Assembly (NCBI GenBank): GCA_051294375.1
Contig: CM119270.1
Span: 9,931,205-9,995,204, forward strand
Source: Paraspadella gotoi
Lineage: Eukaryota > Animalia > Chaetognatha
Length of the DNA stretch: 64,000 nt
Reading direction: 5' to 3'
Part shown: positions 1 to 61,045 of the stretch, one piece after another
Numbering within the stretch: the stretch's first letter is position 1
How the letters are laid out: each line of letters begins with the position of its first letter
Made by a program: the position numbers and the translations under genes
Notes under the pieces: generated by a model
What the model was told of the DNA's origin: nothing
The model's database searches: none
The model's input: the letters and a program-made list of their open reading frames with translations, nothing else

Positions 1-572
1 TTTTCGTTTTAAGGCAATTCCGTTGACGCATTGCTTGCGTCTGCTGATGGAGGATTTGGTCTTTCCGTGGCTGAGGCGAGTCTCACGTTTATATCATAAA
101 TCATTTAGAAAAGTTTTTCAATTTTATTTTCAAGAGATGCTGCGGATTTCGAGGCGGCGGCATCGTGAAAGGCATCGTCACGGTCGTTGTCATAATTTAT
201 ATAAAAATATATCATCGCAGGAGTATCAAGCCACCAAAATCGAATCGGATCGGAGGCTTGGGCGAAATGGAATCGCCGAATCCTGATTGGTCAAGCACGA
301 ACGGAATCGACCAATCAGCTTGCAGAATCATTGAATTGTAAATTTTACCCACGTTGCCGATCCTCTTCCCAAGATATAAATAGACTTAGCTTGTTCTAGT
401 TTCAGTAGAATTGATCAAGACTCCTGCGCGCGTCTCACCGTCACCTTTATTCTCAGAATAAAACTTCTTCTTCTTCTATATAAAATAGAATATATATATA
501 GCTAATAATATTTTGTGCCGCTCTTATTTTTAAAAAGTAATATATGGTGGAGTAAAATCTACCAATTCATCA

Positions 573-645
573 GCGGCCATTGGTGCCGGAGGCAAGTCAT
601 TCGCCTCCCAACCCAAAGGTCCGGGGATCTAGCCTGGTGATCGCC
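573..645 (+). ncRNA. tRNA-derived (Gly-like) Pol III head of family 1; not a functional tRNA
   Basis: Acceptor-like GCGGCCA/TGRTCGC, A-box-like TGGTGCCGGAGG, B-box GGTTCTAGYC in sister copies, TCGCCTCCCA reminiscent of tRNA-Gly; anticodon stem does not pair. Confidence 0.6.
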
Positions 646-891
646 TAGCAGTTAAGAGGGACTTCCGAACACATCATCAACAACAACACTTTCAGGCAAC
701 ATGCCTCAACCTGTTGATGCACTTTCCACCAACAACAATTCACAGAAGAGAAGCAAAAGTCTTCTCCCTATGGGAGTGGGGATGTATGGTGGACTAAAAT
801 CTACCAACCGTTTATCAGCGGCCATTGGTGCCCGAGGCAAGTCATTCGCCTCCTAACCCAAAGGTCCGGGGTTCTAGTCCGGTGGTCGTCT

Positions 892-958
892 AGAGGGATG
901 GGGCGCTTAATCCGCCTGTAACAGGGTGTTACCGCCTGATCCGAAGCTCAGGGATTGC
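892..958 (+). ncRNA. Type-P5 twister ribozyme fold, family 1 (5' P5 strand deleted in this copy)
   Basis: GAGG-GATGG-GGCGCT-T^AA-TCC-GCC-TGTAAC(loop)GTTAC-G-CCTGA-TCCGAAGC-TCAGG-GATTGC; predicted cleavage 908/909. Confidence 0.7.
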
Positions 959-1010
959 TTATATTGAACGGTTCTGTCACTAACATTTATTTTTTAAATT
1001 TTTATTCTAG

Positions 1011-2803: not shown

Positions 2804-3093
2804 TGTGGCGGTATATTCACACCGCCTCACGTCCACCATCCTACAGCCAAATCCATTGGCTCAGAGGGGGATCACACCATCCCAAGTGTAGTGTTCCATC
2901 CACAGTCCTAATGACTTCCCTCTGCGTTGGCAAAGCGAGACCGTCCTAGGGTAACCGCGCCAGTGACTGGAAGCGTCACTGAGGGTCAGAAGCCCCCAAA
3001 GCCAATAGCGAGATGCCCCATCCCAATGGGCATCACAGGCAACCCGGCTGTTGCCATAAGTGGTGAGCCCTACTATCGAACACGCAGCCTTCT
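2804..3093 (+). mobile_element. Twister-retrozyme-like family 2 copy (interrupted by a TIR element at 3094)
   Basis: Homologous to 18493-18725, 20058-20687(-) and 27042-27486; A-box-like TGGCTCAGAGGG 2857-2868, B-box-like GTTCCATCC 2893-2901. Confidence 0.88.
2926..3006 (+). ncRNA. Type-P5 twister ribozyme fold, family 2
   Basis: P5 GTTGGC/GCCAAT; AAA; P2' GCGA; GACCG; P1 TCCTAGGG; T^AA; P2 CCGC; GCC; P3 AGTGAC/GTCACT; G; P4 (A)GGG/CCC(C); L4 TCAGAAGC (TCGG in sister copies); predicted cleavage 2952/2953. Confidence 0.8.
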
Positions 3094-6093
3094 CAGTAGC
3101 GCGGAGCATAAATACAAGATATGATATATGACCTCTTGTGTCCCCTTAATTTTTTGTATTTGTTATAATACTAAGCCCCAAGATAAAAAAAATGAAAATT
3201 CGCTCGCTCAATTTTCCCATTCTATCGATTTTATTAAGCAATTTGATGCAAAAAAATTGTAAAAAAATAGCAAAATTTGATATCAAAGAAAGCTGATTAA
3301 GTTCACTTTTTTAAGTGAAATATTGCTAAAACAAAGAATTAAAACCCGTTTTCATCCATAAAAATTTAAAAAAATATGTTTATATAAATATTGAGTGATT
3401 TGAAAAGTATTTTCATAAAATATTGTTAAAAATTAAGCAAAATGGAAAATAAGTACCAAGCCACATAACGCAGTCAATATCCTTTTTAAAGCTTATAAAA
3501 GCTTTTAGTAGCTACATTAAACTTTATACAGCTTATAATAAGCTTTACTAAAAATATTAATTGACTTACCATAGGCCTTACCCATTACCACTCTCCCTCC
3601 CTTCCGTAGATCGCTCTGGCCGATCTGTCTTCTTTTTTTATCAAAATGAAAAAAATTCTCATGAAAGATTGGTTAGATCGTTTTAAATAAGAACTACCCT
3701 GTTAATTATTAGTACAATTAATAATAATAATAATAATAATAACTATTACAATTTGTTCAGCAAAATTAATTTTAGATCAGAAGATGTTTTATCACTATTT
3801 TCATAAACCTCTATCAATTTTAACATTTTGTTGGCTCATTTTAGTCTGTATAACAAGGATATTAATTTCTTACAATAAATAAATATAATCCTAAAATGTA
3901 TTGACACTCGTGGCGGCGTGTTGGCATGCCCATAGGGAGAAAAAGGGCTCGACGTCGACTACGCTTTGTTGGAAGCTTTATCTCTCTGATTCACTCACTC
4001 ACACACTCTCTCTCTCTCTCTATGAGTCTCTCTCTCTGAAGAGAACTTCTGTCTCAACGCTTGCGGTCCGGGCGTTTGAAGAGTCGCTCGTCCAAAAAAA
4101 TCGCTGAGAATTTCCCAAAAGTCTAAACGTTTATTCTCGGTGACAGAAGTGGCAAATACGTGACAATAACGTGACAAAATAAGTCGCGAAAAATAACCGT
4201 TTTCGGACGAGCAACGACTTTCCGAAGTGTGGTTCTAAAACGACTGAAAAGCGGATCATAAAAATTCTAAAAGTAAACGTTCAAAAATGAACAACGTTAT
4301 AAACGGGCCGACATTAAGAGAGAGAAAAAAATGACCCTAAAAAATGATACGAAAAACGAGGCGAATTTCTCTTCACTCTCTCTCTCTTTCACAACTTTAA
4401 ACTTGCCAATTTTTTGTAATTAAAACTACAAATATGCACTGATTGAAGAACGAAATGACGTTCAAAACATGTCAAATAATAAATAAATTCGTTGTGAAAA
4501 TCCGAAATTTCTAAATCTTTTACCAACGAAATGAAAGAAAAACCAACAGATTATGAAGACGAAAAAGAAAGTGAACTGGAATATCCCGATTTTTTTTATG
4601 TAAAGCATTGTTTACGAGCCTTTACGTCGACGTTTTTAACTCGTCAACACGTTTTTATTATAATAAACAAGTTTGAAACTTTGATCGTCGCCATTTTTAA
4701 AGTGAGTAAGAAAGTGGGGCAACTCAAACGTAAATGTTATTTTATTCTTCACATTCAATTGTCTTCGCGTAAAACGTTCGAGACAAGACCCAGTTATTGC
4801 CCCGTTGTCAGGTCCAATGGCTAGGTTTGTTTAAATGACATGACTGGCAAAGTTGGCTTAAGTTTGATAATCGCTATCGTTTTTATTTTCTGACCTTTTT
4901 TTTTTTTTAGCTAAAATATTTTCTAAATGCTTTTATTAACATAATAAAGTTTTGGGAACCTCTTACATATTTAGATATCATTTCCTCATTTAAAATATTT
5001 AATGATCAAAACATCATTCGTAAACTAGATGGATAACCACCAAAACATTGTGTTAGCCCAACTTGCGTGCTTTTGAAAGGGTTCAGCCATCCCGTGACAA
5101 GCGAGGCTTAGGCCTTGCGCGCCCAAAGGCCTGGCTATGGAAAATAGAGGTGGAGATTAAGCCAAAACACTCTGATCTTGAATAACCATTTTCATTTACT
5201 TAATTTTATTGTTGATATCAGTTTTAGTTTTTGACACTCTGCTTTAAAAGTGTTTTGTTTCATGCTTTTGTTTTTTATCATTTTTAATTGTGTCAAATAA
5301 GAGAGTTTTTAACATTTACAAACAATAGATTTGGTAAATATTAAAAATAATCTCTCTAACTCTGTTCTTATCTCAAACTCACTAAAATGGAAGAAAAAAA
5401 GAATATCAGACTTGACTTAAAGGCAACAATAGTGTAAAGTAGCCACCGTGGGTGAAATGCCTGATGCTTTTTATATCATAAACAAAACCTTTTTAATAAT
5501 TTATTTTTATTTTTGTTATATTATAAAAGTTTTAAACACCATTTGAATAAATACACAGATCCATAAATTTATTAGTTTTCTAATCGCCTTAGTTTATTAT
5601 TTCGCTTTATTTTTTGTGGTTCAAAAAAATGAAAAACTTTAAATATTAATAGATAAAGTAACTTTTTACAAATGAAAACAGCTATATAACTCCTTATTTC
5701 ATATATATTTGATTTCAACTATTTGATTAACCATCTTTCCTATTATTTGAATTTTTTGGTATTTTTCCCCCAAAATACAATTTTTTAATAATATTTAAAC
5801 ATTATTTGATACAAGTTTTTTATATTTATATAGTTGAAAAGAGTTTTAAATACTTGGATTTAGCTATATTTTAGAAAAATTAATAATACTAACCACTTTA
5901 ATTTTATTTTTAAATTTGCTATTTTTTTCGATTTTTTTGCATCTTATCGCATTATAAAATCAATAGAACGGGAAAATTGGCCAAGCGAATTTTTAATTTT
6001 TTGATCTTAGGGAATAGTTTACATGTGTTTCAAAAAATTAGGAGGGCACAAGATGTCCTTTATTATTTCTTGTATTTATACTCCGCGCTACTG
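3094..6093. mobile_element. 3.0-kb non-autonomous DNA transposon with long imperfect TIRs and 3-bp TSD
   Basis: Ends CAGTAGCGCGGAGCATAAATACAAGA / TCTTGTATTTATACTCCGCGCTACTG; inverted similarity continues ~350 bp; flanked by TCT on both sides; no transposase ORF seen. Confidence 0.85.
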
Positions 6094-14354: not shown

Positions 14355-15038
14355 AACAAGTTTGAGCAAACAATGTCGGATCTGCCTACGATAATTAAGT
14401 GGTAATAAGCTAACTTGGTTAACTTGCATAATTTAATCAACTTGCATTATTTGGTCAACTAGCATAATTTGGTCAACTGACATAATTTTGTCAGCTGGCA
14501 TAATTTGGTCAACTGACATAATTTGGTCAACTGACAAAATTTGGTCAACTGACAAAATTTGGTCAACTTACAAAATTTGGTCAACTGACAAAATTTGGTC
14601 AACTGACAAAATTTGGTCAACTGACATAATTTGGTCAACTGACATAATTTGGTCAACTGACTTAATTTGTTTAACTGACTTAATTTATTTAACTGATTTA
14701 ATTTGTTTAACTGACATAATTTGGTTAACTGTCATAATTTGTTCAACTGACATAATTTGGTAAACTGACATAATTTGGTTATATCCATCTCAATCACAGT
14801 TTCCTACCTACACACAAAATTTCATACCAATCCATCCATCCAATCACGAGTAATTGGAGTTTTTTGCTAAGGGTGGACGGACGAAAGGACGGATGGATGG
14901 ACATTTTTTTGCATAATTTATCATAGTTCGAGGTTCTGTTATGATAATAATTATTTACCGACAATATTTTGGGGTGGGACCGACGGACCGACAAAGTGAA
15001 TTATAGAGTCGGAATCTGCTGATTAGCAAATCTGACTA
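14355..15038 (-). mobile_element. HINE/DINE-1-like (Helentron-associated) element with 18-bp internal array
   Basis: 5' hairpin of the AGTCGGATCTGC-TTATCA-GCAGATCCCGACT type, GTCC microsatellite, 3' subTIR GCAGATCCGAC plus GTTTG-CT-CAAAC stem-loop, T-rich insertion site; array (CATAATTTGGTCAACTGA)n at ~14415-14780. Confidence 0.8.
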
Positions 15039-18492: not shown

Positions 18493-18725
18493 TATGGTGG
18501 TATATTCACACCACCTCACGTCCTCGATCGTTCAGCCAATACCATTGACTCAGAGGGGGGACACACCATCCCAGGCGTTGCGTTCCATCCACAGTCCTAA
18601 CGACTTCCCTCTGCGTCCTAGGGTAACCGCACCAGTGACTGGATGCGTCACTGAGGGTCGGAAACCCCCAAAGCCAACAGTGAGATGCCCCATCCCAATG
18701 GGCATCACAGGCAACGCGGCTGTTG
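18493..18725 (+). mobile_element. Family 2 copy with 17-nt deletion through the ribozyme core
   Basis: ctgcgt[tggcaaagcgagaccgt]cctaggg; deletion between CGT microhomologies. Confidence 0.85.
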
Positions 18726-20057: not shown

Positions 20058-20687
20058 TTATGCAACAGGTTGCTGTGATGGCATTGGGATGGGCATTTAC
20101 TGTTGGTTGGGGGCTTAACGACTCATAGCATCCAGTACTGGCGCGGACCAGGCGGTCCGCTTTGCAAGCAAGATGGGATCATTAGGACTGTGGATGGATA
20201 TAAGTGGGATGTGTGCCACCCTGAGCCAATGTTTGGCTGAACGATCGTGGAGTGAGCGGTTGTGTATATACCCCACAGGATCGGCAAGACTCACTCAGTC
20301 CTCAAGCCTGAGAGGTGTTGGACAGACTGGTACCAAGTGGGAGAGAGAGGAGAGAGCTGCAGTTGTGGGGGCATATCGGTTTGTCGTAGCGTACCCCAGG
20401 GGCATAGGCGTTTGTCTACTACCCAATCAGCAGGCAATAGCTTTATACTAAATTCTTTCATATACTCACCCACTTTGCAACAGCCTTGCTGTATCCCATT
20501 GGGATGGGGCATCCTCAACTGTTGGCTTTCTTCCACCCTCATTACCCATCCATCACTCCCTTACCTACTCTCGCTTTGCAACCAAAAGGAAGTGCAAAGG
20601 ACTGTTGATTGGAACAATATGCCTGGGTTTTTCCCACCTACCAAATATTTGGCTGAACATTTGGATGGAGGCTGTGAATAACCGCCA
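20058..20687 (-). mobile_element. Family 2, degenerate head-to-tail tandem (~1.5 units)
   Basis: cattgggatggg(g)cat at ~20082 and ~20497; tttggctgaac at ~20232 and ~20648 (period ~415 nt). Confidence 0.75.
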
Positions 20688-21357
20688 AAAATATCAACGT
20701 ATCACGTATCACGCTAATAAAAACAAAGAAAATAAAAAATAAAAAGACGCTAATAAAAATAATGAATAATAATAATAAAAACAAAGATGCTAATAAACAT
20801 ACCACATAAAAATAAAAATGTGGTCCCACAATACCTACAATACATCTAAAATTTCATTCAAGATAAAAAATTTTTAAGATGAGGAAATGAAATTTATTTG
20901 AATAAGTAAAAAAAATATTTGGAAGTCAAAAATATCATAGTCGTTAACTGATTATTGTCAACTATATATTTTGTTAATAGAGATTATAATTTTTTGACCG
21001 TTATTATTGAAAATAGTTTAGCCTTATAGCGACGAGTTTTCATTTCATACAATCAATATCAATCTCATTAATTTTCAATAATATGCAAAAAAATAAGGTT
21101 TTCAACCTCATTTTGAACTAGATGAACAAAAGACTTCAGTCTTATTTCAATTGAAAAAAAAATAGAAAGTTAATTGATGCTTAATCACACTCTAATAAAA
21201 CAATTTTATTTTTATCACGCCACTTTTTTTTAATACAAAATCCCAAATTTATTTCCGAGATTTTCGTGGATTTTTATTTTTTACCTTCTAAAAACTTTTA
21301 TTATTATTTTATTATTCTCTCTATATTTCTCTCTCAATCAACTCTCTGTCGCTCTCT

Positions 21358-21660: not shown

Positions 21661-24114
21661 AAAAGTAGGCCTGCGATTCCTATTGCTTTTAAGATTTTTT
21701 AGCCCGGATCGCTTTCGGTTTCGAGTGCACATCACTTCCTTCCTTTAGAAATTTTACATTTGTTATTATTTATAAAAATATTCTCTTGAGACATGTAATT
21801 CATTCAACAATCTTTTTTGTTAACAAATAACAACTGAAATTTTTACTATGAAAACTTGTAAGATTTGTAAGATTGTAAGAATCGTTTGAGTGGAAATTAC
21901 TTTAAATGAAAAAACAAAAAACCTGTTTCCCTATTTGCTTTTTTCTTTTTTATTAAATGTAAATACAAGCTGCATTAATTATTCAATTAATCAATTAATT
22001 AATCAAAAAATCAATTAACTAATCAACTAATCAATCAAAAAATTAATTAATCAATTAATTTATCAATCAACTAATTAATAATTTTATTTATCAATAAATT
22101 ATTAAAAAAACCAATTAATTAATTAATCAATCAATTGATCAATCAATTAAACAATGTCAGTATTATCATTGTCGTCATCTCCAACGTCATTTTTGCTTTT
22201 GTCCTTATCAGTGACCTGACAAAAAGACCTAAAAACTAACAGGCCTGATATGAATTTCATTTAATTGATCAATCAATAATTCAATTAATCACGATGGTGA
22301 TATCCTCGTCGTCATCATCATCATCATGGTCGTCATTTCTTTTGTCATAATGAAAAGACGAAAAAACAAACAAGTTTGAGCTAACAATGCCAAAACTGAT
22401 CAGTTAATTAATTATTCAATCAATTAATCAACAACAACTAGTATTTACATTGGCTGAGAAAAAGGTCAGCCATAACAAGGTCGGGTAAGAACAGGTCATT
22501 CTTATTGACCATTACTGTACTACGGGTCACAAAGTACAAAGACTTCATCGTCGTCTTTTTCATTGTATTCGTCGTCGTTGTCGTCTTTGTTAAAACCTAA
22601 ATGTTCTATGTTAATCTTTTAATTAATCAATATGTCATTAATTAATTATTAATTACCGCTAATGATCGTGGGCAGATCCGGCATTGTTTGCTCAAACTTG
22701 TTTATTAATAATTTAGATTTATTTATTTTATATATATTTTTTTATTTGCTTTTTTGTTCAGTGCGAGAGGGGAAAAAAAAAGAAGAGAAAGAGAGAGGGA
22801 GAGAGTTTGTTAGAGATATAAGTATGTATAAGCACAATATTATGCAATATTGCCAATAAAGCAGATCAATCTTTTTGGTTCAAACTAGTTTGTAACATGA
22901 AAAACCTTATGGATTTAAAAAAAAGTAGACTTAAATTTAAAGAAAAACAACAAAAATATAATAAATAAAATTTTTAGTTTTATTGAATTTAAAAAAGCTT
23001 AATTTATATTTTAATTTAACTTATAACTACAGTTTTTTCATATAAAAAAAATCTTTTGTTCAGCTCAGATTTTATTTCAATATATTAAAAAGAATAATTA
23101 AAAAATTAAATGTAATTTTTTTCATCGTGAATTTTTTTTTCATTTTGTTGTGTTTAAAATAACAAAAGTTTAAAATTGTTTTTAACAACGATTTACAATG
23201 TATTAAAAAATCGTTGTTGAAAGCAATTTCAAACTTCTTCTATTAGTAATTTTTTTCATTGATTCTCGACCAAAGAGAAAGAGAGAACAAAAAAAAACCA
23301 AAAAATAAAAGAAGAAAATAAGAAAAAGTGAATAAAAATATTAAGAGAAAACAATTTTAAATGTTGAAATCAAGAAAGAGCAGGGGGTTGCAAAGATTTT
23401 AATACATTAAATACCTTTCATTTCTAACCAATAAAAACAAATGACCAGGAAGCAAACACGCAGGGTTATTATAGGTTCCGGGTTCAATCCTTCATTCTCA
23501 ATTTTTTTATCGCTCCTGGTTTCGGGTTCTTCAAAAATCGGCCGCTTCCACACTCCACAGTGTTCGCTTACGCTTTCCGGATCGCGTCCACATCTCTGGT
23601 TTAAAACTTCAATACTGATGCTACTATTTTTTTTTAAAAATGAACAAAACATTTTTAGCCTTTTTTGGCCTCCCAGGGGTCCAACCCCAGGGCCATGTAT
23701 CTCTGGTCAGGGGTTGAATATCAAAATTCGCCTCGATAGTTCCATTTATATTGTCATTAGCACTCTAAATGTAAAATTTCATGAAATTCGATTGGGTAGT
23801 TTGGTGGGAACAGATTCTGGTAACAAAAAAGGGGTACTGTGGACGACACAAGTTTCAGAGTAAGAATGATTTATTCTTCAACAAGGTTAAAAACGATATC
23901 AATAAAAGGCTCAGATGCTAAGTCAAAAACAATAGATATTTACAAGGTCAAAGTTTGACCATAAAGAGAAATGAGGGAAAACGGTCGAGGGTAAGGTTGG
24001 CAAGTTCGGTTTTGACCAAGGTTGCGTGTTGTAGTTGTTCGTCCACAGTACCTCATTTTATAATATGCAGCCTTCTGTAAATGTGTGAGAGAGAGAGAGA
24101 GAGAGAGACATTAC

Positions 24115-25054: not shown

Positions 25055-25460
25055 AACAAGTTTGTGCAAACAATGTCGGATCTGCCTACGATAATTAAGT
25101 GGTAATAAGCTAACGTGGTCAACTTGCATAATTTAATCAACTTGCATAATTTGGTCAACTGACATAATTTGGTTAACTGACTAAATTTGGTCTACTGACA
25201 TAATTTGGTCAACTGACATAATTTGGTCAACTGACATAATTTGATCAATTAAGATAATTTGGTCAACCGGCATAATTTGGTCAACTGGCATAATTTTATC
25301 AACTGGCCTAATTTGGTCAACTTGCATAATTTGGTCAACAGGCATAATTTGGTGAACTTGCAGAACTTGATCAACTTGCAGAATTTGGTCAACTGGCATA
25401 ATTTGGTCAACTTTAAGAATTTGGTCAACTGGCATATTTTTGTCAATTGGCATAATTTGG

Positions 25461-25491
<31 letters not shown>

Positions 25492-26206
25492 GAGAGAGAT
25501 AGAGAGAGAGAAACTTTAAAAAATACAAAAAAATGTGTCTTTTGGTTTTCTAATTTGAACTCTTTTCCACTCCTACGATTCCATCAAAAAATTTATATCC
25601 AGCTTTATCACATACTTTCCTACCCACACACAAAATTCAATTTCGATTTATCTATCCAATTTTTAATAAACATAATAATTATGTGTAAATTTAAGTAAAA
25701 ATACTTCAAGTAAATATGACTTTTGTTTTTTCCATTTTAACTCATTTCCACTCGCACGATTCCATCGAAACTTTAAATCCAGCTTAATCACACACTTTCC
25801 TACCATCATACAAAATTGCAAGTCAGTTGCCATATCCACTCATGAGCAATAGTGAAATATATTTTTTTGTTTTTTCCATTTAAACCAATTTCCACTCGCA
25901 CGATTCCCTCGAAACTTCATATCCATCTCAATCACACAGTTTCCTACCCACACACAAAATTTCATACCAATCCATCCATCCAATCACGAGTAATTAGAGT
26001 TTTTTGCTAAGGTGGTATGGACGGACAGACAGACAGACAGACAGGCAGACAGACAGATGGACGGACATCATTTTTTTTGCATAATTTATCATAATTAAAT
26101 GTTCTGACATGATATAAGTGTGTGCCCGACAATATTGAGGGGGCGGACCGACGGACCGACAAAGTGAATTATAGAGTCGGGATCTGCTGATAAGCAGATC
26201 CGACTA
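25055..26206 (-). mobile_element. HINE/DINE-1-like element
   Basis: Same termini; 18-bp array ~25115-25465. Confidence 0.82.
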
Positions 26207-27041
26207 AAAAGAAGTCCAACTGTAAGAGATGATTTCAATGATTTTTCAATCTCATTTACATATTGCAGTATTAAATCTAAATTAGACTATTTTCATTTTG
26301 AAATTTTCCGACTAAAAAGAAGTCCAACTGTAAGAGATGATTATTTAATATGATCTTAAATGAGATTTTTCAATCTCATTTACATATTACAGTATTAAAT
26401 CTAAATTAGACTATTTTCATTTTGAAATTTTTGGGAACAAACACGTTCCAGGCAAAGTGCAAGAATGATTGGAACACCGTACCTTCATAAGCGACGGCAC
26501 TTTTACTCGCAAGTGGCAACTCTCTTTCCTCTTCCTTTCTCATTTTCTCATTTCCTTGAATTTGGTAATACTTCTATTCTAGGGCCGAGAAATCTTCCTC
26601 ACCCACTCCGCCCCCCCTCAGTGAATCAGGGAATCCTTGTCTTCCTAATGGGCGGAGCTCTTCTAAATTGTTTCATCACCGTCGGAGGCCGAAGTGAAAA
26701 TCGGGGAAGAGAAAGACGTGAGATTCGCTAATCGGAGCAAAGAAAAAGAAAAAGTAGGAGGAAAGGGGAGAGGAATAAGATTTAAGAAATAGGAGGAAAT
26801 AGGAGTCATTAAAGTAATACTTATAAAAAATATATAAGTACTCTGTTATGTAGTTCTCTTTGTCAATATTTTGGCGACAACAACAACGACAACAACAACG
26901 ACAATAACAACGACAACAACAACAACGACTCTTTTTGCTATCGTCGTTTTTCTCTCTGAAAATGATTTTGATCATTACATGTTGTAAATATATTCGTGAA
27001 ACATCTTATTTTTTCTTAAAATTCCTGCTAATTCATTTACC

Positions 27042-27486
27042 TAAGTGGTGAACCCTACCATCGAACACGCAACCTTCTCAGGATATGCTACGACAAACGC
27101 CTATGCCCCCACAACTCGCGCTCTCTCTCTCTCTCTCTCTCCCACTATGGTAACAGTCCTGTCAGACACCTCTCAGACTTGAGGAACCTGAGTGATGTCT
27201 TGGCCCGGGGATCCTGTGGTGGTATATTCACACCAACTAACGTCCACGATCGTTCAGCCAATACCATTGGCTCAGAGGGGGAACACACCATCTCAGGCGT
27301 TGTGTTTAATCCACACTCCACACAGTCCACAGTCCTAACGACTTTCCTCTGCGTTGGCAAATCGAGACCGTCCTAGGGTAACCGCGCCAGTGACTGGATT
27401 CGTCATTGAAGGTCGGAAGCCCCCAAAGCCAACAGTGAGAAGCCCCATCCCAATGGGCATCACAGGCAACCCGGCTGTTGCCATAA
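27042..27486 (+). mobile_element. Family 2, one complete unit (445 nt) with terminal TAA redundancy
   Basis: Starts TAAGTGGTGAACCCTACC and ends GTTGCCATAA; these two ends are contiguous in the 2804-3093 copy (TTGCCATAAGTGGTGAGCCC). Confidence 0.9.
27353..27433 (+). ncRNA. Type-P5 twister ribozyme fold, family 2 (T1 intact)
   Basis: GTTGGC-AAA-TCGA-GACCG-TCCTAGGG-T^AA-CCGC-GCC-AGTGAC..GTCATT-G-AAGG-TCGGAAGC-CCCC-AAA-GCCAAC; predicted cleavage 27379/27380. Confidence 0.8.
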
Positions 27487-28138
27487 TATCGTCTTTTTGG
27501 TTGTCATTGCGTTCATTTTATTTTTGTTAGCACTTCCTTGTGATGTCTCAAGTTTAAGTGAAAGCTATACGAAGAAAACCCCCCCAAAAAAAAATATTGA
27601 AAAAGGAAGTGTAACGAATATTAAATAATTAAAAGAGTAAAATCTAAACATGTAAAAATCAACGGTTTTAAAGGAAAATAAAAACAAAAAGAAAAGAAAG
27701 AAATCAACTTCAAGATATTGAATGGAAGAAGATCGAGAGAAGAAATTCAGAGATGTAAATTCGGCAAAGAAGGAGATTGAAAGGGAAGAAAAGGAGAATA
27801 TGGATTCAAAGAGGCGGAGTCAATTAGTGAAAAAAAAAACACCCTACTAAAAAAATAAAAAATTAAAATAAAATATAAGCTAAAAAAAGACTACATAAAC
27901 TTAGGTAGTAGAAAATTCTTTCTTTGCCTCACGACATCATCATCCTCTCATGAGCGACTCTGTCCTCTTATCATAACTTTCACTTTAGTTTAATAGGAAA
28001 AAGAGGCGCTTTTTCGATGATTAAAGAACCTTTTTAAATAATTTTTTTTTCGACTCGAAAGATGGCGAAGAGGATTTTTTAAAGCTGAAGTTTTCTTTTT
28101 TGGGTTTGCTCCATAACCGTGTTCAAGATTTATCACAG

Positions 28139-31030: not shown

Positions 31031-32146
31031 CTTCCTATTGAGAGGGCTTCCCCTATTCAGAAGAAAAAAAGAGAGAAAGAGAGAGCGACATATAATTAAA
31101 AGAGAGATAGAGAAAAGCCTGACAGCCGCTGGAAACAGAAGCAGCAGCGATGGAGAAAAAGAGAAGAGAGAGCGCGACATATTATTAAGAGAGAGAAAAG
31201 CTCAACAGCCCTTTTACTCTTACCTAACAAGTAAATACCTATGGCGCCCGAGGGAGCGCAAACGCCTCCCCAATCTGAAGGACTCGGGTTCGCGCCCTTG
31301 TGAAGCATACAAGAAAAGCGGAAAAAAAGAAAAAGAAAAAAGGGAGAATGGATGGTAAACTGCTGTGCGGCATCGTCCTTAATATTGGTGAGCCCACAAT
31401 ATATATATATATATATATAAATATAATTTTTTTTGTTAAAAAGAGAGAGAAGAGAGAGAGAGAGAGAGAGATAGAAGGAAGCTGACGATGCTGCACGACG
31501 CTGCAGAGCCAGAACTCGTTTTTAGACAAATCAAGAAGAAAAAAGAGAGAAGAGAGAGAGAGCACATATAATTAAAAGAAAGAGAGAGCGGAAAGAGACA
31601 TATAATTAAAAGGTTTTTGTTTTATAAATAAAAATAAACAAATAGGAATATTGATATGAAACATGGGAATATTAAAGATCCTGATGATTAGAAGCCATAT
31701 ATAAATTTCCTATGATATCACACTTTTAGAAGCCACGATTGCAAAAAAGCGTGACGCAGACGACGACGACGACGACTACGGCACAAAGAAGCAAAAGCGA
31801 ATTATTATAGAGACACGACCGGCTTCGCCCGGTCTGTCTCGATAAAAATATCTTGTTTTGATTTTCATTTCATTCAACTGCAAATGAGAAACCAAAAATA
31901 CCCGTGTTACATCTTTCTCTCTCTCTCTCTCACTCATGACATAGATCCACTAGGAGTCCAGTAAAATTGATTTTGTATCAGGCATATAAACTCTCTTTCT
32001 CTCTATATTTTAAAAACGTCTGGTGAATGATAGGACATATAAGGAATAATTTATAACAGGGTCTCACAAGTTAATTACAATTAAAATAAAATGATACAGA
32101 GTTGACCGATATTGAACCTTATCACCCATTCATCGACTTGGGTTTT

Positions 32147-33374
32147 TAGTCGGATCTGCTTATCAGCAGATTCCGACCCTATAAATCACTTTGTCGGTCC
32201 GTCGGTCCCACCCCAAAATATTGTCGGTAAATCATTATTATCATATCAGAACGTCGAATTATGATAAATTATGCAAAAAAATTCCATCCGTCCGTCCGTC
32301 CAATTACTCGTGATTGGATGGATGGATTGGTATGAAATTTTGTGTGTGGGTAGGAAACTGTGTGATTGAGATGGATATGAAGTTTCGATGGAATCGTCCG
32401 AGTGGAAATTGGTTTAAATGGAAAAAACAAAAAAATCTATTTCACTATTTGAACGCCAATTGCTCATGAGTGGATAGGGCAAGTGACTTGATATTTGTAT
32501 GATGGTAGGAAAGTGAGTAATTGAGCTGGATATAAAGTTTCGATGGAATCGTGCGAGTAGAAATGAGTTAAAATGGAAAAAAACAAAAATCATATTTACT
32601 TGAAACATTTTTACTTAAATTTACTCATAATTATTATGTTTATTAAAAATAGTGAAACAAGTAATTTGCAAATTTTCATAGACAAATTGAAAATGAATTT
32701 TGTTTGTGGGTAGGAAAGTATGTGATAAAGCTGGATATAAATTTCTTGATGGAATCGTAGGAGTGGAAAAGAGGTCAAACCAAAAGACACATTTATTTGA
32801 ATTTTTTAAAGTTTCTCTCTCTCTATCTCTCTCTGATTGATTGATTGATTGATTGACCAAATTATGCCAATTGAAAAAAATATGCCAGTTGATCAAATTC
32901 TGCAAGTTGACCAAATTATGCCAGTTGACCAAATTATGCCAGTTGACCAAATTCTGCAAGTTGACCAAATTATGCCAGTTGACCAAATTATGCCAGTTGA
33001 TAAAATTATGCCAGTTGATAAAATTATGCCAGTTGACCAAATTATGCCGGTTGACCAAATTATGTTAATTGACCAAATTATGTCAGTTGACCAAATTATG
33101 CCAGTTGACCAAATTTTGTCAGTTGAACAAATTATGTCAGTTAACCAAATTATATCAGTTAACCAAATTATGTCAGTTGACCAAATTATATCAGTTAACC
33201 AAATTATGTCAGTTGACCAAATTATGCAAGTTGATTAAATTATGCAATTTGACCAAGTTAATTATCATAATTATAATCATCATTATTATAATCATCATTA
33301 TTATCATAATTATTATCATCATCAATTATCATAATTATCATAGGCAGATCCGATATTGTTTGCTCAAACCTGTT
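32147..33374 (+). mobile_element. HINE/DINE-1-like element
   Basis: Same termini; 18-bp array ~32852-33257. Confidence 0.82.
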
Positions 33375-44127: not shown

Positions 44128-44149
44128 TATCAATCTATCAATAAATCAC

Positions 44150-44388
44150 CTGAAGCACAGCCGTATGACGCTAAAAAGAGCCATGAGGCCGACGAAGGCG
44201 AAGGCGGCGACGCCGGCCCATCGATGAGCCGTCCAGGCGACGCCGAGTTGGTCGATGGCGGCGTCGAAATCCGGCGTCGGATCGGGAATCGGAAGTCCGA
44301 ATAGCGACGTCGGCGGCGTGCCGGCGTTGAGCGACGTCGTGGGTGGCGTGGTCGCCGGTGGAGGCGGCGTCGCGCCGCTGGACGTCAT
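44150..44388 (-). CDS. PRRT3/4-like exon 1 (Pro/Thr-rich stalk, TM1)
   Basis: MTSSGATPPPPATTPP...PIPDPTPDFDAAIDQLGVAWTAHRWAGVAAFAFVGLMALFSVIRLCF; donor ag|gtgatt; upstream acceptor at 44414. Confidence 0.85.
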
Positions 44389-45235
44389 GGTTGAGTTCGA
44401 CCCCAAAAAATTATCTGGAGGAGAAAGAGAAAGAGGAGAAGTCAAGTGGCGAGGATAAAATTAAAGGAAGTCTGACCTCGGGTCGGCTTATTTTTTTTTT
44501 AAGTTTTATTGTCGGTCGTCGTCGTCGTCGTTCTTGTTCGTTTTTGACAATTTATTCACGGGTACATAAAACACTTCAACAAAAAAATAGTTTTTGAAAC
44601 GTAAAGTTTTGAGGAACTTGAAGTGTAAAAACAAGGAATTTAAAATGAAAAAACCGTTTCGAGTTTTTAATCGGCAATTCTCCGCTACAGGAATTCGCGG
44701 GCGCCGCGATATCAAACTGAGAATTACAAAAAAAGATTTATTTCGGTTTTCGTTCGTTTGAAGGAGAAAAAAATCGCGGGATTTATAGATATTTGATGTC
44801 GTTGATCTCTTATAAATATATCCGGTGTTTACGGCTCGAGGACAGAAACGTGTGGAATCTGTAGATTTATCGCGAGGGTGGCTAAAATAGATGATCTAAA
44901 TAAGATATAGGTTTGCTGTAGCTTGTCTGTAGGTTTAATCGCTTTTTAATGTGCGAATGTACATCGAATTTATTTATTGAGGTAGACGTTTACGACAGAA
45001 AAAGTGCAAAGATTTAAATTTTTCCCCTTCCTTTTTAAAATATTTATGGGCGAAAAAATCTCTAATTAGTTTAACACCTGGGGCAAAAAAACCTAGTTAC
45101 CAAGTATTTGTAAATAAAGTGTATTAATATTAAAATAGCTCGAAATAATTATAAAAACATTATTAGTGTCCTGTTCTTAGATAAAAATGAATATGAATGC
45201 AGATGCTTGAAGGCGTATTCATCTTTTTTAAGGAA

Positions 45236-46256
45236 AACAAGTTTGAGCAAACAATGTCGGATCTGCCTACGAAAACTAATTAATTAATTAATCGATTAAT
45301 TAATTAATTAATTAATTTTAATATTTAATATTTAATAATTAATTATAAATTTATATACAGCTTAACATATCGATGTCCTTAAAATAAAGTAAATGTGACT
45401 TATATTTTTTCAATTTAAACTCATTTCCACTGGCAACATTTCGTCAAAACTTTACATCTAGCTTCTTTCACAAACTTTCCTTCCCGCTCACAAAATTTTA
45501 TCTCAATCTATTATGGATTAAAATAAGTAAAAAGAGTCAAGTAAATATGACTCTATTTTTTTCATTTAAACTCATTTCCACTCAGCCAATCACGAGTTAT
45601 TGGGGCTTTTTGCTAAGGTAGGACAGATGGACGGATTGATTGACTGATTAATAAATTAGTGATTAATTAATTTACTAATTGATTAATTAACTGATTAATT
45701 ATTTGATTTTTAATACATCCTGCATATACATTTAATATAAAAGGAAAAAAATCATAATCAATTAGTGAAACAGGTTTTTTGTTTTTTTTTAATTTAAACT
45801 CATTTCCACTCAAACTATTCCATCGAAACTTGATTTCCTGTTCAATCACACACTTTCCTATTCACATACAAAATTCCAGGTAATCAGCCCATCCACTCAT
45901 GAGCAATTGGTGTTCAAATAGTGAATATATTTTTTTGTTTTTTCCATTTAAACTCATTTCCACATGGACGATTCCATCGAAACTTCATACCAGCTCAATC
46001 ACACACTTACCTATCCACACACAAAATTTTATTCAAATCCATCCATCCATCACGAGTAATTGGTGTTTTTTGCTAAGGTGGCACGGACGGACGGACAGAC
46101 GGACGGACGGACGGACATCATTTTTTTTGCATAATTTATCATAATTCGATGTTCTGACATGATATAAGTTAGTGCCCGACAATATTGAGGGGGCGGACCG
46201 ACGGACCGACAAAGTGAATTATAGAGTCGGGATCTGCTGATAAGCAGATCCAACTA
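45236..46256 (-). mobile_element. HINE/DINE-1-like element (subfamily without 18-bp array)
   Basis: Same termini; internal ~130-150-bp subrepeats (aaactcatttccac...). Confidence 0.82.
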
Positions 46257-47258
46257 AAAAAAAGAGAAAATTCTTCAGTGTCCGATGTTACTGTCAAAAC
46301 TTATTTTGTCTTTCGCGGGAGATTTTTTTTTTTTAAGGAAAAACCTTCACAAAAACAGATTCACGTTTCGAAAAAAAAAAGTTAGGAATTGGCGGCGATG
46401 GTTTCGAACCTCTCATCCCCGGGGGTGTGGAGGAGGAGGAGGAGGAGGGGGAAGTTGAGGTTGAGCCTGGTCCGAGAGTCAGAAAAGTTAAAGACGTGAA
46501 AAGTGTCCGTGGTCGAACCGCGCATCTGATTAAATCAAGAGAAGCGAAGATGACCGATCCGTGATTTGGTAATCGAGTCGTTGATGTGTTGGTAAGAAAA
46601 TAAAAGATTTGGTGCTAAGAATTGAGGGATCGGGTGATGCTGGAGATCCGATAAGGATATATCGACGATAACCAATTAAAAGGACGGGTTCATGATGAAA
46701 TGTTAACTTGCATCGAAAGAAAGAAATCATTGTTGTGGTGATCGACAACTTGGTGATTGGTGAATCGGTGATACGGTGATCCGGTGATTCGGCCCATCCC
46801 TTATATCCGGGATCTTTCAAGGGCCAAACAAATTCGCGAGCCGTGAGTGAGTCACCCGTGAATCGATAGAGATACCGGAGGAGGAGGACGAGACCGGTTG
46901 GGCTTTTTTTATTCTTTTGGTCGTCGTCGTCTTCTTTGGCTTCGTCTTCATCGTCGTCGTCGTTTTCGTTGTCAGCGTCATCGTCCGTTTGGCGGTTGAA
47001 AAGTGGCCGAGCGAGTCTCCCCGAAAGGTTGATGCATTTAAAGTTTATTTTAAAAAAATAATTTTTTGAAATCGGAGAATGAATCGAAATTATGCGAATT
47101 TAACCGAAGAGGTCATAGAAAGTTCGATGAAATGATACTTTTTTATTAGGATCCGAATTTTTTTGGGAGAGAAAGTTGTTTTCCTCTTCCTTCTAATTAC
47201 GCGAACTCAAATTTGATACGAAATAAGAATTTTTATTTTACGATTTTGTTTCTTTTTT

Positions 47259-49441: not shown

Positions 49442-49540
49442 TGAAGAGACAGTAATTATTGTTATGTGACAGAACCGTTCAATATAAGAAGTCACTGAGC
49501 TTCGGATCAGGCTGTAACACCGAGCTACAGGCGGGTTAAG
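49442..49540 (-). mobile_element. Family 1 fragment: 3' half of twister plus tail
   Basis: CTTAACCCGCCTGTAGCTCGGTGTTACAGCCTGATCCGAAGCTCAG...ATTACTGTCTCTTCA. Confidence 0.85.
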
Positions 49541-50549: not shown

Positions 50550-51066
50550 TCCCTCTTAACTGCTAGGCAACTACCGGGCTAGAACCCCGGACCTTTGAGT
50601 TGGGAGGCGAATGACTTGCCTTCGGCACCAATAGCCGCTGATGAATGGTTTAGTCCACCATACATCCCCCCCTCCCGTAGGGAGAAGTCTGTTGCATCTC
50701 TTCAGTGAATTGTTGTTGTTGGTAAAAAGTTCATCACCAAGTTGAGGCATGTCGCCTGATGTGTTGTTGGCGGAAAGTGCATCGACAGGTTGAGGCATGT
50801 CGCCTGAAAGCGTCGTTGTTGCTCTTGTATTCGGAAGTCGAGCTCACCAATGAAGAGACAGTAATTATTGTTATGTGTTAATGACAGAACTGTTCAATAT
50901 AAACGGTCCCTGAGCTTCGGAACAGGCTGTAACACCGAGTTACAGGCGGGTTAAGCGCCCCGTTCCTCTTAACTGCTAGGCGACCACCAGGCTAGAACCC
51001 CGGACCTTTGGGTTAGGAGGCGAATGACTTGCCTGATGAATAGTTGGTGGATTTTAGTCCACCATA
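50550..51066 (-). mobile_element. Twister-retrozyme-like family 1, ~1.3-unit copy (head - twister - tail - spacer - head)
   Basis: Unit period 404 nt here (TATGGTGGAC at 51066 and again at 50662); block order is a circular permutation of 543-986. Confidence 0.88.
50903..50976 (-). ncRNA. Type-P5 twister ribozyme fold, family 1
   Basis: GCAGTT-AA-GAGG-AACGG-GGCGCT-T^AA-CCC-GCC-TGTAAC-TCGGT-GTTACA-G-CCTGT-TCCGAAGC-TCAGG-GACCGT; presumed catalytic G is A in this copy; predicted cleavage 50953/50952. Confidence 0.72.
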
Positions 51067-56322: not shown

Positions 56323-56326
<4 letters not shown>

Positions 56327-56540
56327 GAAGAGACAGTAATTATTGTTATGTTTAATGACAGAACTGTTCAATATAACGGTCCCTGAGCTTCGGAAACAGG
56401 CCTGTAACACCGGATTACAGGCGGGTTAAGCGCCCCGTTCCTCTTAACTGCTAGGGCGACCACCAGGCTAGAACCCCGGCCTTGGGTTAGGAGGCGAATG
56501 ACTTGCCTGATGAATAGTTGGTGGATTTTTGTCCACCATA
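56323..56540 (-). mobile_element. Family 1 copy inside the second unit of the 5.4-kb duplication
   Basis: Near-identical to 50848-51066. Confidence 0.85.

Positions 56541-61012: not shown

Positions 61013-61045
<33 letters not shown>

What the first reader, a model, noticed from the sequence alone, without database searches (positions are those of the whole stretch)
27042..27486. Candidate new system: twister-ribozyme retrozymes with Pol III heads, two families in one window
Seen: two ~0.4-kb repeat families with little shared sequence (family 1 at 543, 49442, 50550, 56323; family 2 at 2804, 18493, 20058, 27042) have the same layout: TGGTGG hairpin, A/B-box head, type-P5 twister fold, structured spacer. 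Copies are head-to-tail or circularly permuted, have no ORF, LTR, poly-A tail or clear TSD, and the consensus units lack T4+ runs despite the T-rich genome. Established: animal non-LTR retrozymes (newt satellite 2, Schistosoma SM-alpha and relatives) are tandem non-coding units carrying hammerhead ribozymes, processed to monomeric and circular RNAs; twister ribozymes are known in the 5' region of Schistosoma Perere-3 retrotransposons. Inference: read-through Pol III multimers are cut by twister into 5'-OH/2',3'-cyclic-phosphate monomers, circularised (e.g. by RtcB) and reinserted by a borrowed RT. I do not know of a described twister-plus-tRNA-head retrozyme, but I cannot search the literature.
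Basis: partly seen in the sequence, partly recalled or inferred. Interest (0 to 1): 0.95.

Follow-up and report, generated by a model that had tools for sequence, protein, structure and literature searches.

The report
Animal mini-LTR retroelements carrying twister ribozymes
This genome, likely an animal's, holds two gene-less repeat families that each carry a tRNA-type promoter motif followed by a twister-ribozyme fold, and the family measured genome-wide has fixed ends, so they are likely miniature LTR retrotransposons whose RNA would cut itself in both end repeats and possibly close into a circle, a design my literature searches found only for plants and with a different ribozyme.

Summary
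The repeats and the type-P5 twister folds are real. Family 2 copies are not freely permuted tandem units. Contigs of four public runs show fixed ends at 27215 (TG) and 27485 (CATA). The 271-nt body has 2.5-11 times the depth of the 171-nt spacer, and its flanks are biased to ATAT in a fixed register. In both families the spacer opens with a TGG motif pairing 11-12 of 13 nt with tRNA-Trp; in family 1 it closes with a purine tract. Three window loci read body-spacer-body. This is the layout of Helenus-type TRIMs (tRNA promoter in the LTR, Gypsy-mobilised), here with a twister in each LTR. Against a published twister the pseudoknot shows compensatory changes; Rfam stays far below threshold. In both families P1 is a short palindrome, which suggests the two LTR ribozymes cut as a pair. 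Two published Trp-primed Helenus LTRs hold an unremarked hammerhead in the same slot. Direct TSDs, cleavage, Pol III transcription, circles and the helper are untested, and a Penelope/Naiad-dependent reading remains. Verdict: new variant, likely an animal LTR retrozyme.

The parts
27044..27214 (+). Family 2 internal region (171 nt, non-coding, with a (CT)n run); its 5' LTR is missing at this locus
   Evidence: Joint 27483->27042 in 4, 4, 2 and 0 contigs of runs X3, X1, X7, X9; depth 2.5-11 times below the body
27046..27058 (+). Family 2 primer-binding-site-like motif TGGTGAACCCTAC, 2 nt after the LTR end in intact junctions
   Evidence: Pairs 11 of 13 with the honeybee tRNA-Trp 3' end printed in Fig. 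S2 of PMC10886601 (compared by eye); same motif at 3061-3073
27207..27211 (+). Short purine run GGGGA, 3 nt before the LTR (weak PPT candidate)
   Evidence: Sequence; weaker than in family 1
27215..27485 (+). Family 2 LTR-like body, TGTGG...GCCATA (271 nt here, including a private 16-nt insertion)
   Evidence: Loose ends of contigs pile at 27215 (39, 39, 37 contigs in X3, X1, X7) and at 27485-27489 (223 in X3)
27268..27312 (+). A box (27268-27278) and B-box-like motif (27304-27312, decayed in this copy); short spacing, no cloverleaf
   Evidence: Coordinates; majority letters at 27307-27308 match copies 2804 and 18493; no sense-strand ARAGORN call at 70% or above
27353..27433 (+). Type-P5 twister fold, predicted cut 27379/27380; this copy has private changes in P2 (27362), P3 (27406) and P4 (27410)
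   Evidence: Descriptor; the majority letter restores a Watson-Crick pair at all 3 sites, and no variant of 10% or more falls on a core position in 4 runs
27371..27378 (+). 8-nt palindromic P1 linker UCCUAGGG
   Evidence: No stable hairpin; homodimer -11.0 kcal/mol; 4 of 264 8-mers of the LTR are self-complementary
2804..3096 (+). Family 2: 5' LTR (2804-3058, twister 2926-3006) plus primer site and 38 nt of internal region, cut off by another repeat
   Evidence: Rfam twister-P1 16.7 bits on 2958-3001; MFE fold recovers P5, P2, P3 and P4 unaided
18493..18725 (+). Family 2 solo LTR; 17-nt deletion in the twister 5' strand; last 5 nt missing; 5' flank GTAC
20059..20689 (-). Family 2 decayed full element: LTR (20689 to ~20475), internal region, LTR (20277-20059)
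   Evidence: First LTR aligns to 2804-3075 from the 5' terminus into the primer site, score 193 against a best shuffle of 43 in 300; second LTR and internal region
541..991 (+). Family 1 element in a cytochrome P450 region: LTR 541-661 (deleted from the twister through the primer site), internal region, purine tract 772-782, LTR 783-991 (about 25 nt short)
   Evidence: P450 exons downstream
818..890 (+). Family 1 tRNA-like head (Arg-CCT-like), A box 826-837, B box 870-880
   Evidence: ARAGORN at 80% threshold
894..965 (+). Family 1 twister core, predicted cut 908/909, 6-nt palindromic linker 902-907; P2 one base short; the 5' strand of P5 is deleted in this copy
   Evidence: Best descriptor hit, score 21; homodimer -8.3 kcal/mol, no hairpin; alignment
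50550..51066 (-). Family 1 element: LTR (51066-50851, A box deleted), primer site 50849-50837, internal region, 12-purine tract 50676-50665, second LTR from 50664 broken off about 10 nt before the cut site
   Evidence: the primer site pairs 12 of 13 with tRNA-Trp of Fig. S2 (by eye)
49442..49540 (-). Family 1 LTR 3' half (twister P2-P4 to the LTR end CA)
56323..56540 (-). Family 1 LTR, duplicate of the 51066 copy inside a ~5.5-kb segmental or assembly duplicate; not an independent insertion
   Evidence: Self-BLAST, 93-99% over 50848-56123 against 56323-61785

Best explanation
Both families are likely miniature non-autonomous LTR retrotransposons (Helenus-type TRIMs) whose LTR carries a tRNA-type promoter motif followed by a type-P5 twister fold, and whose RNA is predicted to be cut in both LTRs and would probably be circularised before reverse transcription. 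Shown: the body-spacer-body layout, fixed family-2 ends, the primer-site-like motif, the family-1 purine tract and the twister fold. Inferred steps: (1) Pol III starts at the A/B boxes of the 5' LTR and, meeting no T run, reads through the internal region and the 3' LTR. (2) The two twisters cut, most likely as a pair whose palindromic P1 linkers anneal, so solo LTRs would cut poorly. This frees a ~430-440-nt U5-PBS-internal-PPT-U3 RNA with 5'-OH and cyclic-phosphate ends and no terminal repeat (R). (3) A host RtcB-type ligase closes it. (4) The RT of a Gypsy-type helper, primed by tRNA-Trp, runs across the joint instead of making a strand transfer. (5) Integrase inserts LTR-internal-LTR at 4-bp ATAT-like sites, and LTR-LTR recombination leaves the solo bodies that dominate. 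Odds: LTR class about 0.7; twister active about 0.8 (family 2) and 0.6 (family 1); circle as template about 0.45; paired cutting about 0.5.
For: Ends and proportions. Fixed 5' end at 27215 and 3' end at 27485, with AT-rich loose flanks. Body:spacer depth 2.5, 4.2, 11.1 and 5.5 in four runs (the tool warns this is no copy number), whereas a plain tandem unit predicts about 1. Three window loci read body-spacer-body and none has three bodies. Terminal 6-bp inverted repeat TGTGGC/GCCATA using the majority letter at 27220.

Target. After the 3' end, A, T, A, T follow in at least 62, 52, 60 and 60% of X3 contigs against 33% background, and 43 of 223-252 carry ATAT. The 5' flank consensus ends in ATAT in 3 of 3 runs listed at 27215.

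Primer site and PPT. The motif starts 1-2 nt after the body, is 18 of 23 identical between the two otherwise unrelated spacers, and pairs 11-12 of 13 with tRNA-Trp. An 11-12-nt purine tract abuts the family-1 LTR. Animal Helenus have this plan, 4-bp TSDs, Gypsy-type primer sites and LTR:internal ratios above 2. The two Trp-primed Helenus LTRs of Synergus start TGTGG and carry a full type-III hammerhead just 3' of the tRNA part (read by eye).

Twister. Against Table 1 of PMC8501958 the T1 pseudoknot has two compensatory changes in family 2 (L4 GUCGGAAGC with GACCG) and one in family 1. In X3, 10 sites vary at 10-90% in the 138 nt before the twister and 2 inside it, both in the P3 loop (counted by eye). 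Palindromic P1 in both families, with different sequences.
Against: No target-site duplication is seen directly. The only window locus with both ends (20059-20689) is decayed and gives at best 3 of 4. Listed 3' ends outnumber 5' ends (223 against 39 in X3). The reference's private changes near its 5' end explain part of this (22 X1 contigs break at 27243 with the LTR start as their loose letters), but 769 rows were not shown. The family-2 PPT is only 5 purines and its 3' end is TA, not CA (such ends occur in Helenus Data S1). Both primer sites mispair at position 7 with the honeybee tRNA, and the host tRNA is unknown. Family-1 ends were not measured genome-wide, and both of its two-LTR loci have broken 3' LTRs. 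No Rfam twister model comes near threshold. Family-1 P2 is one base short; family-2 P2 begins with C.A. The predicted circle of this copy is no more stable than shuffles (z -0.28, 56% paired), unlike the more than 70% paired retrozyme RNAs. No Gypsy or other RT piece among 25 of the 64 window ORFs scanned. Unchecked notes of this scan place palindrome-armed P5 twisters in Naiad (Penelope-like) repeats.
Confidence: 0.6

Rival explanations
1. The families are non-LTR parasites of a Penelope-like (Naiad) element. The body is a pseudo-LTR with twister; the helper RT starts at a fixed internal site (the CATA end) on linear or circular RNA, and the TGG motif is an RT-binding signal, not a primer site.
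For: 3' ends are the more numerous listed boundary. AT-rich flanks. Truncated copies in the window. Animal hammerhead retrozymes are linked to PLEs (abstract of bioRxiv 10.64898/2026.07.22.740005). Three unchecked notes report palindromic P5 twisters in Naiad tails. SM-alpha pairs a Pol III promoter with a hammerhead.
Against: A fixed 5' end at TG, 42-53 nt upstream of the A box and so not a usual Pol III start (recalled geometry). Terminal inverted 6-mer. tRNA-Trp match in both families. Family-1 purine tract abutting the body. ATAT in fixed register on both flanks. Body:spacer above 2. No arrays of more than two bodies in the window. Non-LTR retrozymes lack LTR, PBS and PPT and have longer TSDs.
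Confidence: 0.2
2. They are Helenus-type TRIMs, but replicate by ordinary strand transfer. The twister (perhaps captured from a Naiad or RTE element) only trims one end of the RNA, or is dispensable, and no circle is needed.
For: All LTR evidence above. Most published Helenus LTRs have no room for a ribozyme after the tRNA part (supplement parts 1, 5-9). An uncut or singly cut transcript keeps a repeat of about 100 nt or more, enough for strand transfer. The circle is not unusually structured.
Against: The core is invariant across runs while upstream LTR sites vary. Two divergent families keep the fold with compensatory changes and independent palindromes. A second ribozyme class sits in the same slot in Synergus Helenus.
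Confidence: 0.15
3. The body is an ordinary SINE or a MITE with 6-bp inverted ends, and the spacer and twister likeness are incidental.
For: Body alone is the commonest form, with fixed ends and a tRNA-type head. No Rfam support.
Against: No simple-repeat or A tail. The shared primer-like motif and the body-spacer-body loci are unexplained. Compensatory pseudoknot changes, and a descriptor score above all 20 shuffles for the two best copies.
Confidence: 0.05

Closest known systems
Helenus (TRIMp3), Kojima 2024, PMC10886601 (main text parts 1-4 and 6 of 6; supplement parts 1 and 5-10 of 11, plus two motif searches of the whole file)
   Same: Short non-coding LTR-internal-LTR plan; A/B boxes in the LTR; TGG primer site 0-few nt after the LTR; PPT; many solo LTRs; 4-bp TSD and Gypsy dependence in animals; a tRNA-Trp-primed lineage with TGTGG starts.
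   Different: The paper names no ribozyme in Helenus. In most LTRs I saw, the tRNA part is near the 3' end and followed by a T run. Here it is followed by a twister and no T4 run. Six twister-loop motif searches of its Data S1 gave only 2 hits, both in internal regions (line breaks can hide matches).
Helenus-2_SyJa and Helenus-2_SyUm (Synergus wasps; Data S1 of PMC10886601)
   Same: tRNA-Trp primer site, TGTGG start, similar LTR size, and a ribozyme fold just 3' of the tRNA part (my reading by eye; not stated in the paper).
   Different: Type-III hammerhead with loop-loop pairing instead of a twister; longer internal region.
Plant LTR retrozymes (Cervera et al. 2016, PMC4918200, passages read)
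   Same: Ribozyme in each LTR, PBS and PPT, 4-bp TSD, solo LTRs, Ty3/Gypsy helper, cut-to-cut RNA circularised by a host ligase.
   Different: Hammerhead type III, tRNA-Met primer, no Pol III boxes reported, larger, highly self-paired RNA; circles shown there, untested here.
Animal non-LTR retrozymes and Schistosoma SM-alpha (PMC7229834, PMC6765202, PMC7761336, passages; bioRxiv 10.64898/2026.07.22.740005, abstract and word search)
   Same: Small non-coding units with a self-cleaving ribozyme; Pol III promoter in SM-alpha; amphibian and PLE hammerheads cut as dimers through short palindromic stems.
   Different: Type-I hammerheads, dimers to 62-mers, no LTR, PBS or PPT, longer TSDs, PLE-linked.
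Twister T-variants of Perere-3 (Liu et al. 2021, PMC8501958; abstract, sections 3, 5, 17)
   Same: Same catalytic core order; the family-1 P3 resembles the Schistosoma P3; weak or absent P1 tolerated.
   Different: Type-P1 at the 5' end of an autonomous RTE, with the cut as the insertion boundary; here type-P5, internal, and copies span the cut.

Membership tests
Helenus (TRIMp3) | Two LTRs around a short non-coding internal region, under about 1 kb | tested here: met
   Body-spacer-body at 20059-20689, 541-991 and 50550-51066, all decayed or broken; fixed family-2 ends and body:spacer 2.5-11
Helenus (TRIMp3) | tRNA-derived A and B boxes in the LTR | tested here: met
   Family 1: ARAGORN call in 2 of 4 heads at 80%. 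Family 2: box motifs only, short spacing, 0 of 3 sense-strand calls at 70% or above
Helenus (TRIMp3) | Primer-binding site complementary to a tRNA 3' end just after the 5' LTR | tested here: inconclusive
   12 of 13 (family 1) and 11 of 13 (family 2) against honeybee tRNA-Trp of Fig. S2; host tRNA not available (no genome held; no tRNA in window)
Helenus (TRIMp3) | Polypurine tract before the 3' LTR | tested here: inconclusive
   Clear in family 1 (772-782; 50676-50665), 5 purines only in family 2
Helenus (TRIMp3) | 4-bp target-site duplication (animal members) | tested here: inconclusive
   ATAT bias in fixed register on both flanks across contigs; no clean TSD at any window locus
Helenus (TRIMp3) | Gypsy helper with matching primer site | not testable with these tools
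   No genome held; none among 25 window ORFs scanned
Plant LTR retrozyme | Hammerhead ribozyme in each LTR | tested here: not met
   The fold is a twister; no hammerhead hit in Rfam scans
Plant LTR retrozyme | tRNA-Met primer site | tested here: not met
   Best match among the tRNAs printed in Fig. S2 is Trp
Plant LTR retrozyme | Highly self-paired cut-to-cut RNA | tested here: not met
   One diverged copy: 56% paired, z -0.28 against 60 shuffles
Plant LTR retrozyme | Linear and circular cut-to-cut RNA in tissue | not testable with these tools
   No run on record as RNA; contigs cannot show ends or circles
Animal non-LTR retrozyme | Type-I hammerhead | tested here: not met
Animal non-LTR retrozyme | Tandem multimers without LTR, PBS or PPT | tested here: not met
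   At most two bodies per window locus; primer-like and purine motifs present; body:spacer above 2; arrays elsewhere in the genome not excluded
Twister ribozyme, type P5 | Core order P5-P2'-GA-T1'-P1-U^AA-P2-GC-P3-P4-L4(AAGC)-P4'-P5' with both pseudoknots | tested here: met
   compensatory T1 changes; family-1 P2 has 3 bases instead of 4; P5-type order recalled from Roth et al. 2014 (not read) and the figure legend
Twister ribozyme, type P5 | P1 helix of at least 2 bp | tested here: inconclusive
   Family 2: 2 bp with a 3-4-nt loop at best. Family 1: no hairpin possible. Both form 6-8-bp self-duplexes
Twister ribozyme, type P5 | Rfam twister model at gathering score | tested here: not met
   Best 16.7 against 67.2 bits, twister-P1, 1 of 5 scans
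Twister ribozyme, type P5 | Site-specific self-cleavage at U^A | not testable with these tools
   Bench test
SINE (tRNA-derived) | Simple-repeat or A-rich 3' tail, with the 5' end at the tRNA start | tested here: not met
   Sharp 3' end CATA; 5' end lies 42-53 nt before the A box

The most novel reading that the evidence does not exclude
Animals have LTR retrozymes: Pol III-driven, tRNA-Trp-primed mini LTR elements in which a ribozyme slot behind the promoter (twister here, hammerhead in Synergus) replaces the R repeat. The two LTR twisters cut only as a domain-swapped pair through a palindromic P1, so only two-LTR transcripts yield a unit-length RNA, which is circularised and reverse-transcribed without strand transfer.
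Probability: 0.25. Interest if true: 0.88.

Novelty: new variant of a known kind. Interest (0 to 1): 0.74.

Why it matters
It would join three lines kept apart in the papers I read: Helenus TRIMs (Pol III promoter, no ribozyme described), plant LTR retrozymes (hammerhead, circles) and eukaryotic twisters, whose one shown role is 5' processing of an RTE element. It would give an animal LTR retrozyme and a twister-based retrozyme, neither found in my 10 searches. It offers a 0.7-kb system to test whether cleavage plus ligation can stand in for the first strand transfer, and whether twisters, like hammerheads, work as obligate dimers. It also predicts that Rfam misses many such twisters and that other Helenus-like LTRs hide ribozymes; the Synergus hammerhead can be checked at once.

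Tried and rejected
No whole genome is held. Family-1 ends, copy ratios and flanks were not obtained genome-wide, so the fixed-end claim for family 1 rests on window copies only.

The run search listed 10 holders in 4 studies, with no RNA holder listed. X9 is only guessed to be RNA; its cover and its lack of the LTR-PBS joint are no evidence on expression.

Exact-pattern scans for family-2 motifs found 0 loci in metagenome, viral (28) and prokaryote genome collections (71). A homologue search with a P450 exon gave no hit at E 1e-8 or better, so the host is placed only as a likely animal (clan-2-like P450 exons). Rfam scans of family-1 copies gave no twister.

Rejected: (a) that copy 49540 starts exactly at the cut site (13 of 19 upstream letters still match, so the boundary is ambiguous); (b) absence of T4 as proof of read-through selection; (c) an unusually stable circle; (d) a Pol III start at the 5' end (different and long distances to the A box); (e) 56323 as an independent copy; (f) empty-site paralogues for TSD reading: of 10 flanks tested only 18493 had an adjacent one, and it gave the 5' side only. 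Look-ups of earlier notes by place and by sequence were empty.

Supplements not seen that may bear: Helenus Data S1 parts 2-4 and Table part 11 (covered only by motif search), the Liu 2021 T-variant lists, and the bioRxiv preprint's files. Roth 2014, Ferbeyre 1998 and Lunse 2017 were not read, only cited through reviews.

Full report
Observation. The window is 64 kb of AT-rich DNA (GC 25-45% per 2 kb) with split cytochrome P450 exons, so the host is likely an animal; it was not placed further. BLAST of the named copies confirms both families and adds a fifth family-2 piece at 20465-20627. The 56323 copy belongs to a near-identical duplicate of 50848 onward and is not independent. The 27042-27486 stretch is one spacer followed by one body. 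The 2804 copy is one body followed by the first 38 nt of the spacer.

The twister. Rfam finds no twister in the whole window or in 27040-27490, none in two family-1 copies, and 16.7 bits (gathering 67.2) for the P3-P4 part at 2958-3001. A descriptor written after seeing the copies ranks family 1/2 copies as the top 5 hits; 0 of 20 shuffles reach 19, shuffle maxima are 15-18. The stronger test is comparison with Table 1 of Liu et al., where loop L4 GUCCCAAGC pairs with GAGGG. Family 2 has GUCGGAAGC with GACCG, two compensatory changes in the pseudoknot, which a covariance model does not score. Family 1 has one such change. The MFE fold of the natural 2926-3006 copy recovers P5, P2, P3 and P4. 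In contigs of four runs the three stem changes private to the 27042 copy (27362, 27406, 27410) revert to pairing letters in 97-99.7% of X3 depth. No variant of 10% or more falls on a core position. In X3, 10 sites vary at 10-90% in the 138 nt upstream and 2 within the 81-nt fold, both in the P3 loop; the last 52 nt of the body also show none (counted by eye). Weak points: family-1 P2 is one base short, family-2 P2 starts with C.A, and most window copies are damaged.

P1 is a palindrome. Between the T1 strand and the cut site family 2 has UCCUAGGG and family 1 GGCGCU. Neither forms a stable hairpin; they self-pair at -11.0 and -8.3 kcal/mol; 4 of 264 and 8 of 200 windows of the LTRs are self-complementary. 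A hairpin stem is partly self-complementary by nature, so this is suggestive only. Hammerheads of PLEs and amphibian retrozymes cut as dimers through short palindromic stems, and twisters cut inefficiently without P1. I infer a domain-swapped pair between the two LTRs of one transcript. A search for twister + dimer + palindromic listed 11 papers, none on this by title or abstract. Unchecked notes of this scan reached the same idea for Naiad elements; they are leads, not support.

The ends. Laying X3, X1, X7 and X9 on 26960-27560 gave loose AT-rich flanks at 27215 (39, 39, 37 contigs; not listed for X9) and at 27485-27489 (85, 66, 29 and 43 in X3). A further 22 X1 contigs break at 27243 with the LTR start as their loose letters. 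The table shows 24 rows and hides 769, so shares cannot be given, and listed 3' ends outnumber 5' ends. The joint from body end to spacer start is in 4, 4, 2 and 0 contigs. Body depth is 2.5, 4.2, 11.1 and 5.5 times spacer depth (not a copy number). After the 3' end the letters A, T, A, T follow in at least 62, 52, 60 and 60% of X3 contigs against 33% background; 43 of 223-252 carry ATAT. The 5' flank consensus ends in ATAT in X3, X1 and X7 (same organism, not independent). Window flanks at family-2 ends are ACGT, GTAC and TATT (5') and ATAT and AGAT (3'). This fits a 4-bp duplication of an ATAT-like target, but no window locus shows a clean one. Family-1 ends were not measured across the genome; in the window 2 of its 3 independent loci begin at the same TATGG and 2 of 3 show the same CA at the body end.

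The spacer. In both families it opens 1-2 nt after the body with TGG and a motif 18 of 23 identical between families. Against the tRNA 3' ends printed in Fig. S2 of Kojima 2024 it pairs 12 of 13 (family 1) and 11 of 13 (family 2) with tRNA-Trp, both mispairing at position 7; the published Trp-primed Helenus pairs over the same 13 nt. Family 1 ends its spacer with an 11-12-nt purine tract directly before TG; family 2 has 5 purines plus 3 nt. Three loci read body-spacer-body: 20689-20059 (first body score 193 against a best shuffle of 43 in 300), 541-991 and 51066-50550. None has three bodies.

The head. ARAGORN calls a tRNA in 2 of 4 family-1 heads at 80% threshold (Arg-CCT, Gly-CCC) and in 0 of 3 family-2 heads on the sense strand at 70% or above. 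Family 2 has a good A box and a one-mismatch B box with short spacing. The 5' end lies 42-53 nt before the A box, so it is not a usual Pol III start (recalled geometry). T4 runs are absent from 5 of 6 copies, which is rare in the window (35 of 1224 slices) but common in shuffles of the copies.

Mechanism. Shown: layout, ends, motifs, fold. Inferred: Pol III read-through from the 5' LTR; cuts in both LTRs, probably concerted; a ~430-440-nt RNA with no R repeat; ligation by an RtcB-type enzyme (shown for hammerhead retrozymes in vitro); tRNA-Trp-primed reverse transcription across the joint by a Gypsy-type RT; integration with a 4-bp TSD; solo LTRs by recombination. This explains why copies span the cut site yet have fixed ends, which a circle copied by target priming would not give. 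Against the circle: this copy's unit folds no better than 60 shuffles (z -0.28, 56% paired), and an uncut or singly cut RNA could replicate by ordinary strand transfer. No RNA evidence could be had.

Comparison. Kojima 2024 defines Helenus as TRIMs with tRNA-like A/B boxes in the LTR, PBS, PPT, 4-bp TSDs and Gypsy-type primer sites in animals. The word ribozyme occurs once, in a reference title. Its Data S1 shows LTRs starting TGTGG or TATA and ending CATA or TA. Six twister motif searches gave 2 hits, both in internal regions. By eye I saw no twister in parts 1 and 5-9, but the two Synergus Trp-primed LTRs hold a full type-III hammerhead behind the tRNA part; the other 3 of 5 CTGATGAG hits are fungal and were not examined further. 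Plant retrozymes have the ribozyme-in-LTR plan with hammerheads and tRNA-Met. Animal retrozymes are non-LTR, hammerhead, PLE-linked. Twisters are described at RTE 5' ends.

Novelty. Ten full-text searches were run: twister ribozyme + retrozyme (13 papers); twister + SINE + tandem + self-cleaving ribozyme + tRNA (5); twister + circRNA + metazoan + tandem repeats + hammerhead (7); twister ribozyme + Penelope-like + non-autonomous (8); twister + LTR retrotransposon + TRIM + ribozyme (3); TRIM + animal + solo LTR + tRNA (5); twister + dimer + palindromic (11); Helenus + ribozyme (2); type-P5 + twister (2); and ribozyme + non-autonomous LTR + Gypsy + Pol III + circular RNA, 4 of 5 terms (10). In the listings and the passages I read, none describes a twister in an LTR, an animal LTR retrozyme or a ribozyme in Helenus. 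The library lacks most subscription papers and Repbase.

Verdict. Observation partly confirmed, interpretation partly supported. It works most likely like a plant LTR retrozyme, it is built like Helenus, and it belongs to neither retrozyme family by their hammerhead criterion. New variant of a known kind; best explanation 0.6, Penelope rival 0.2, LTR without circle 0.15, SINE or MITE 0.05; interest 0.74.

Noticed in passing
PMC10886601 Data S1, Helenus-2_SyJa-LTR and Helenus-2_SyUm-LTR: Both published LTRs contain, 3' of the tRNA part, a complete type-III hammerhead read by eye: GUC site, 7-bp stem I, CUGAUGA, 4-bp stem II, GAAA, 6-bp stem III, and 12-nt complementarity between loops I and II. 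The paper's text does not mention it. These are the tRNA-Trp-primed families.
   Followed up: partly
window 50848-56123 and 56323-61785: Tandem ~5.5-kb duplicate at 91-99% identity with many small indels: a young segmental duplication or an uncollapsed haplotype.
   Followed up: partly
window 998-1405 and 1747-1962 (+): Two cytochrome P450 exons (Pfam p450; best solved relatives CYP17, CYP1A2, CYP2R1); the family-1 element at 541-991 lies just upstream, probably in an intron.
   Followed up: partly
window 47255-48206, 58130-58665, 32142-33260, 25055-26214, 45387-46264, 14355-15037, 52657-52988: Abundant repeat family with ~155-210-bp internal tandem units, (GTCC)n runs and an 18-bp minisatellite; resembles Helentron-associated (DINE-1-like) elements from memory.
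   Followed up: no
window 24020-24079 (-): A paralogue of the 5' flank of the 18493 solo LTR continues, after the same GTAC, into a decayed copy of the family-2 primer-site region, as if the 5' LTR had been cleanly lost; 27042 also lacks its 5' LTR almost exactly.
   Followed up: partly
window 27215-27240, 2804-2828, 785-808: Both families open with a 6-7-bp hairpin at the LTR start, and family 2 ends in two small hairpins (about 27444-27480); their role is unexplained.
   Followed up: no
window 661 and 50550: Two independent family-1 LTRs break off about 10 nt before the predicted cut site; at 661 the break joins to the end of the primer site through a 3-nt microhomology.
   Followed up: no
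window 3094-3373 and 5816-6093: Inverted pair of another ~280-bp repeat; one copy truncates the family-2 element at 3096.
   Followed up: no
window 4498-4821 (+) and 44149-44460 (-): Possible exons: a weak SRR1 match (E 0.008, below cut-off), and a proline-rich stretch with a hydrophobic helix and no Pfam match.
   Followed up: no
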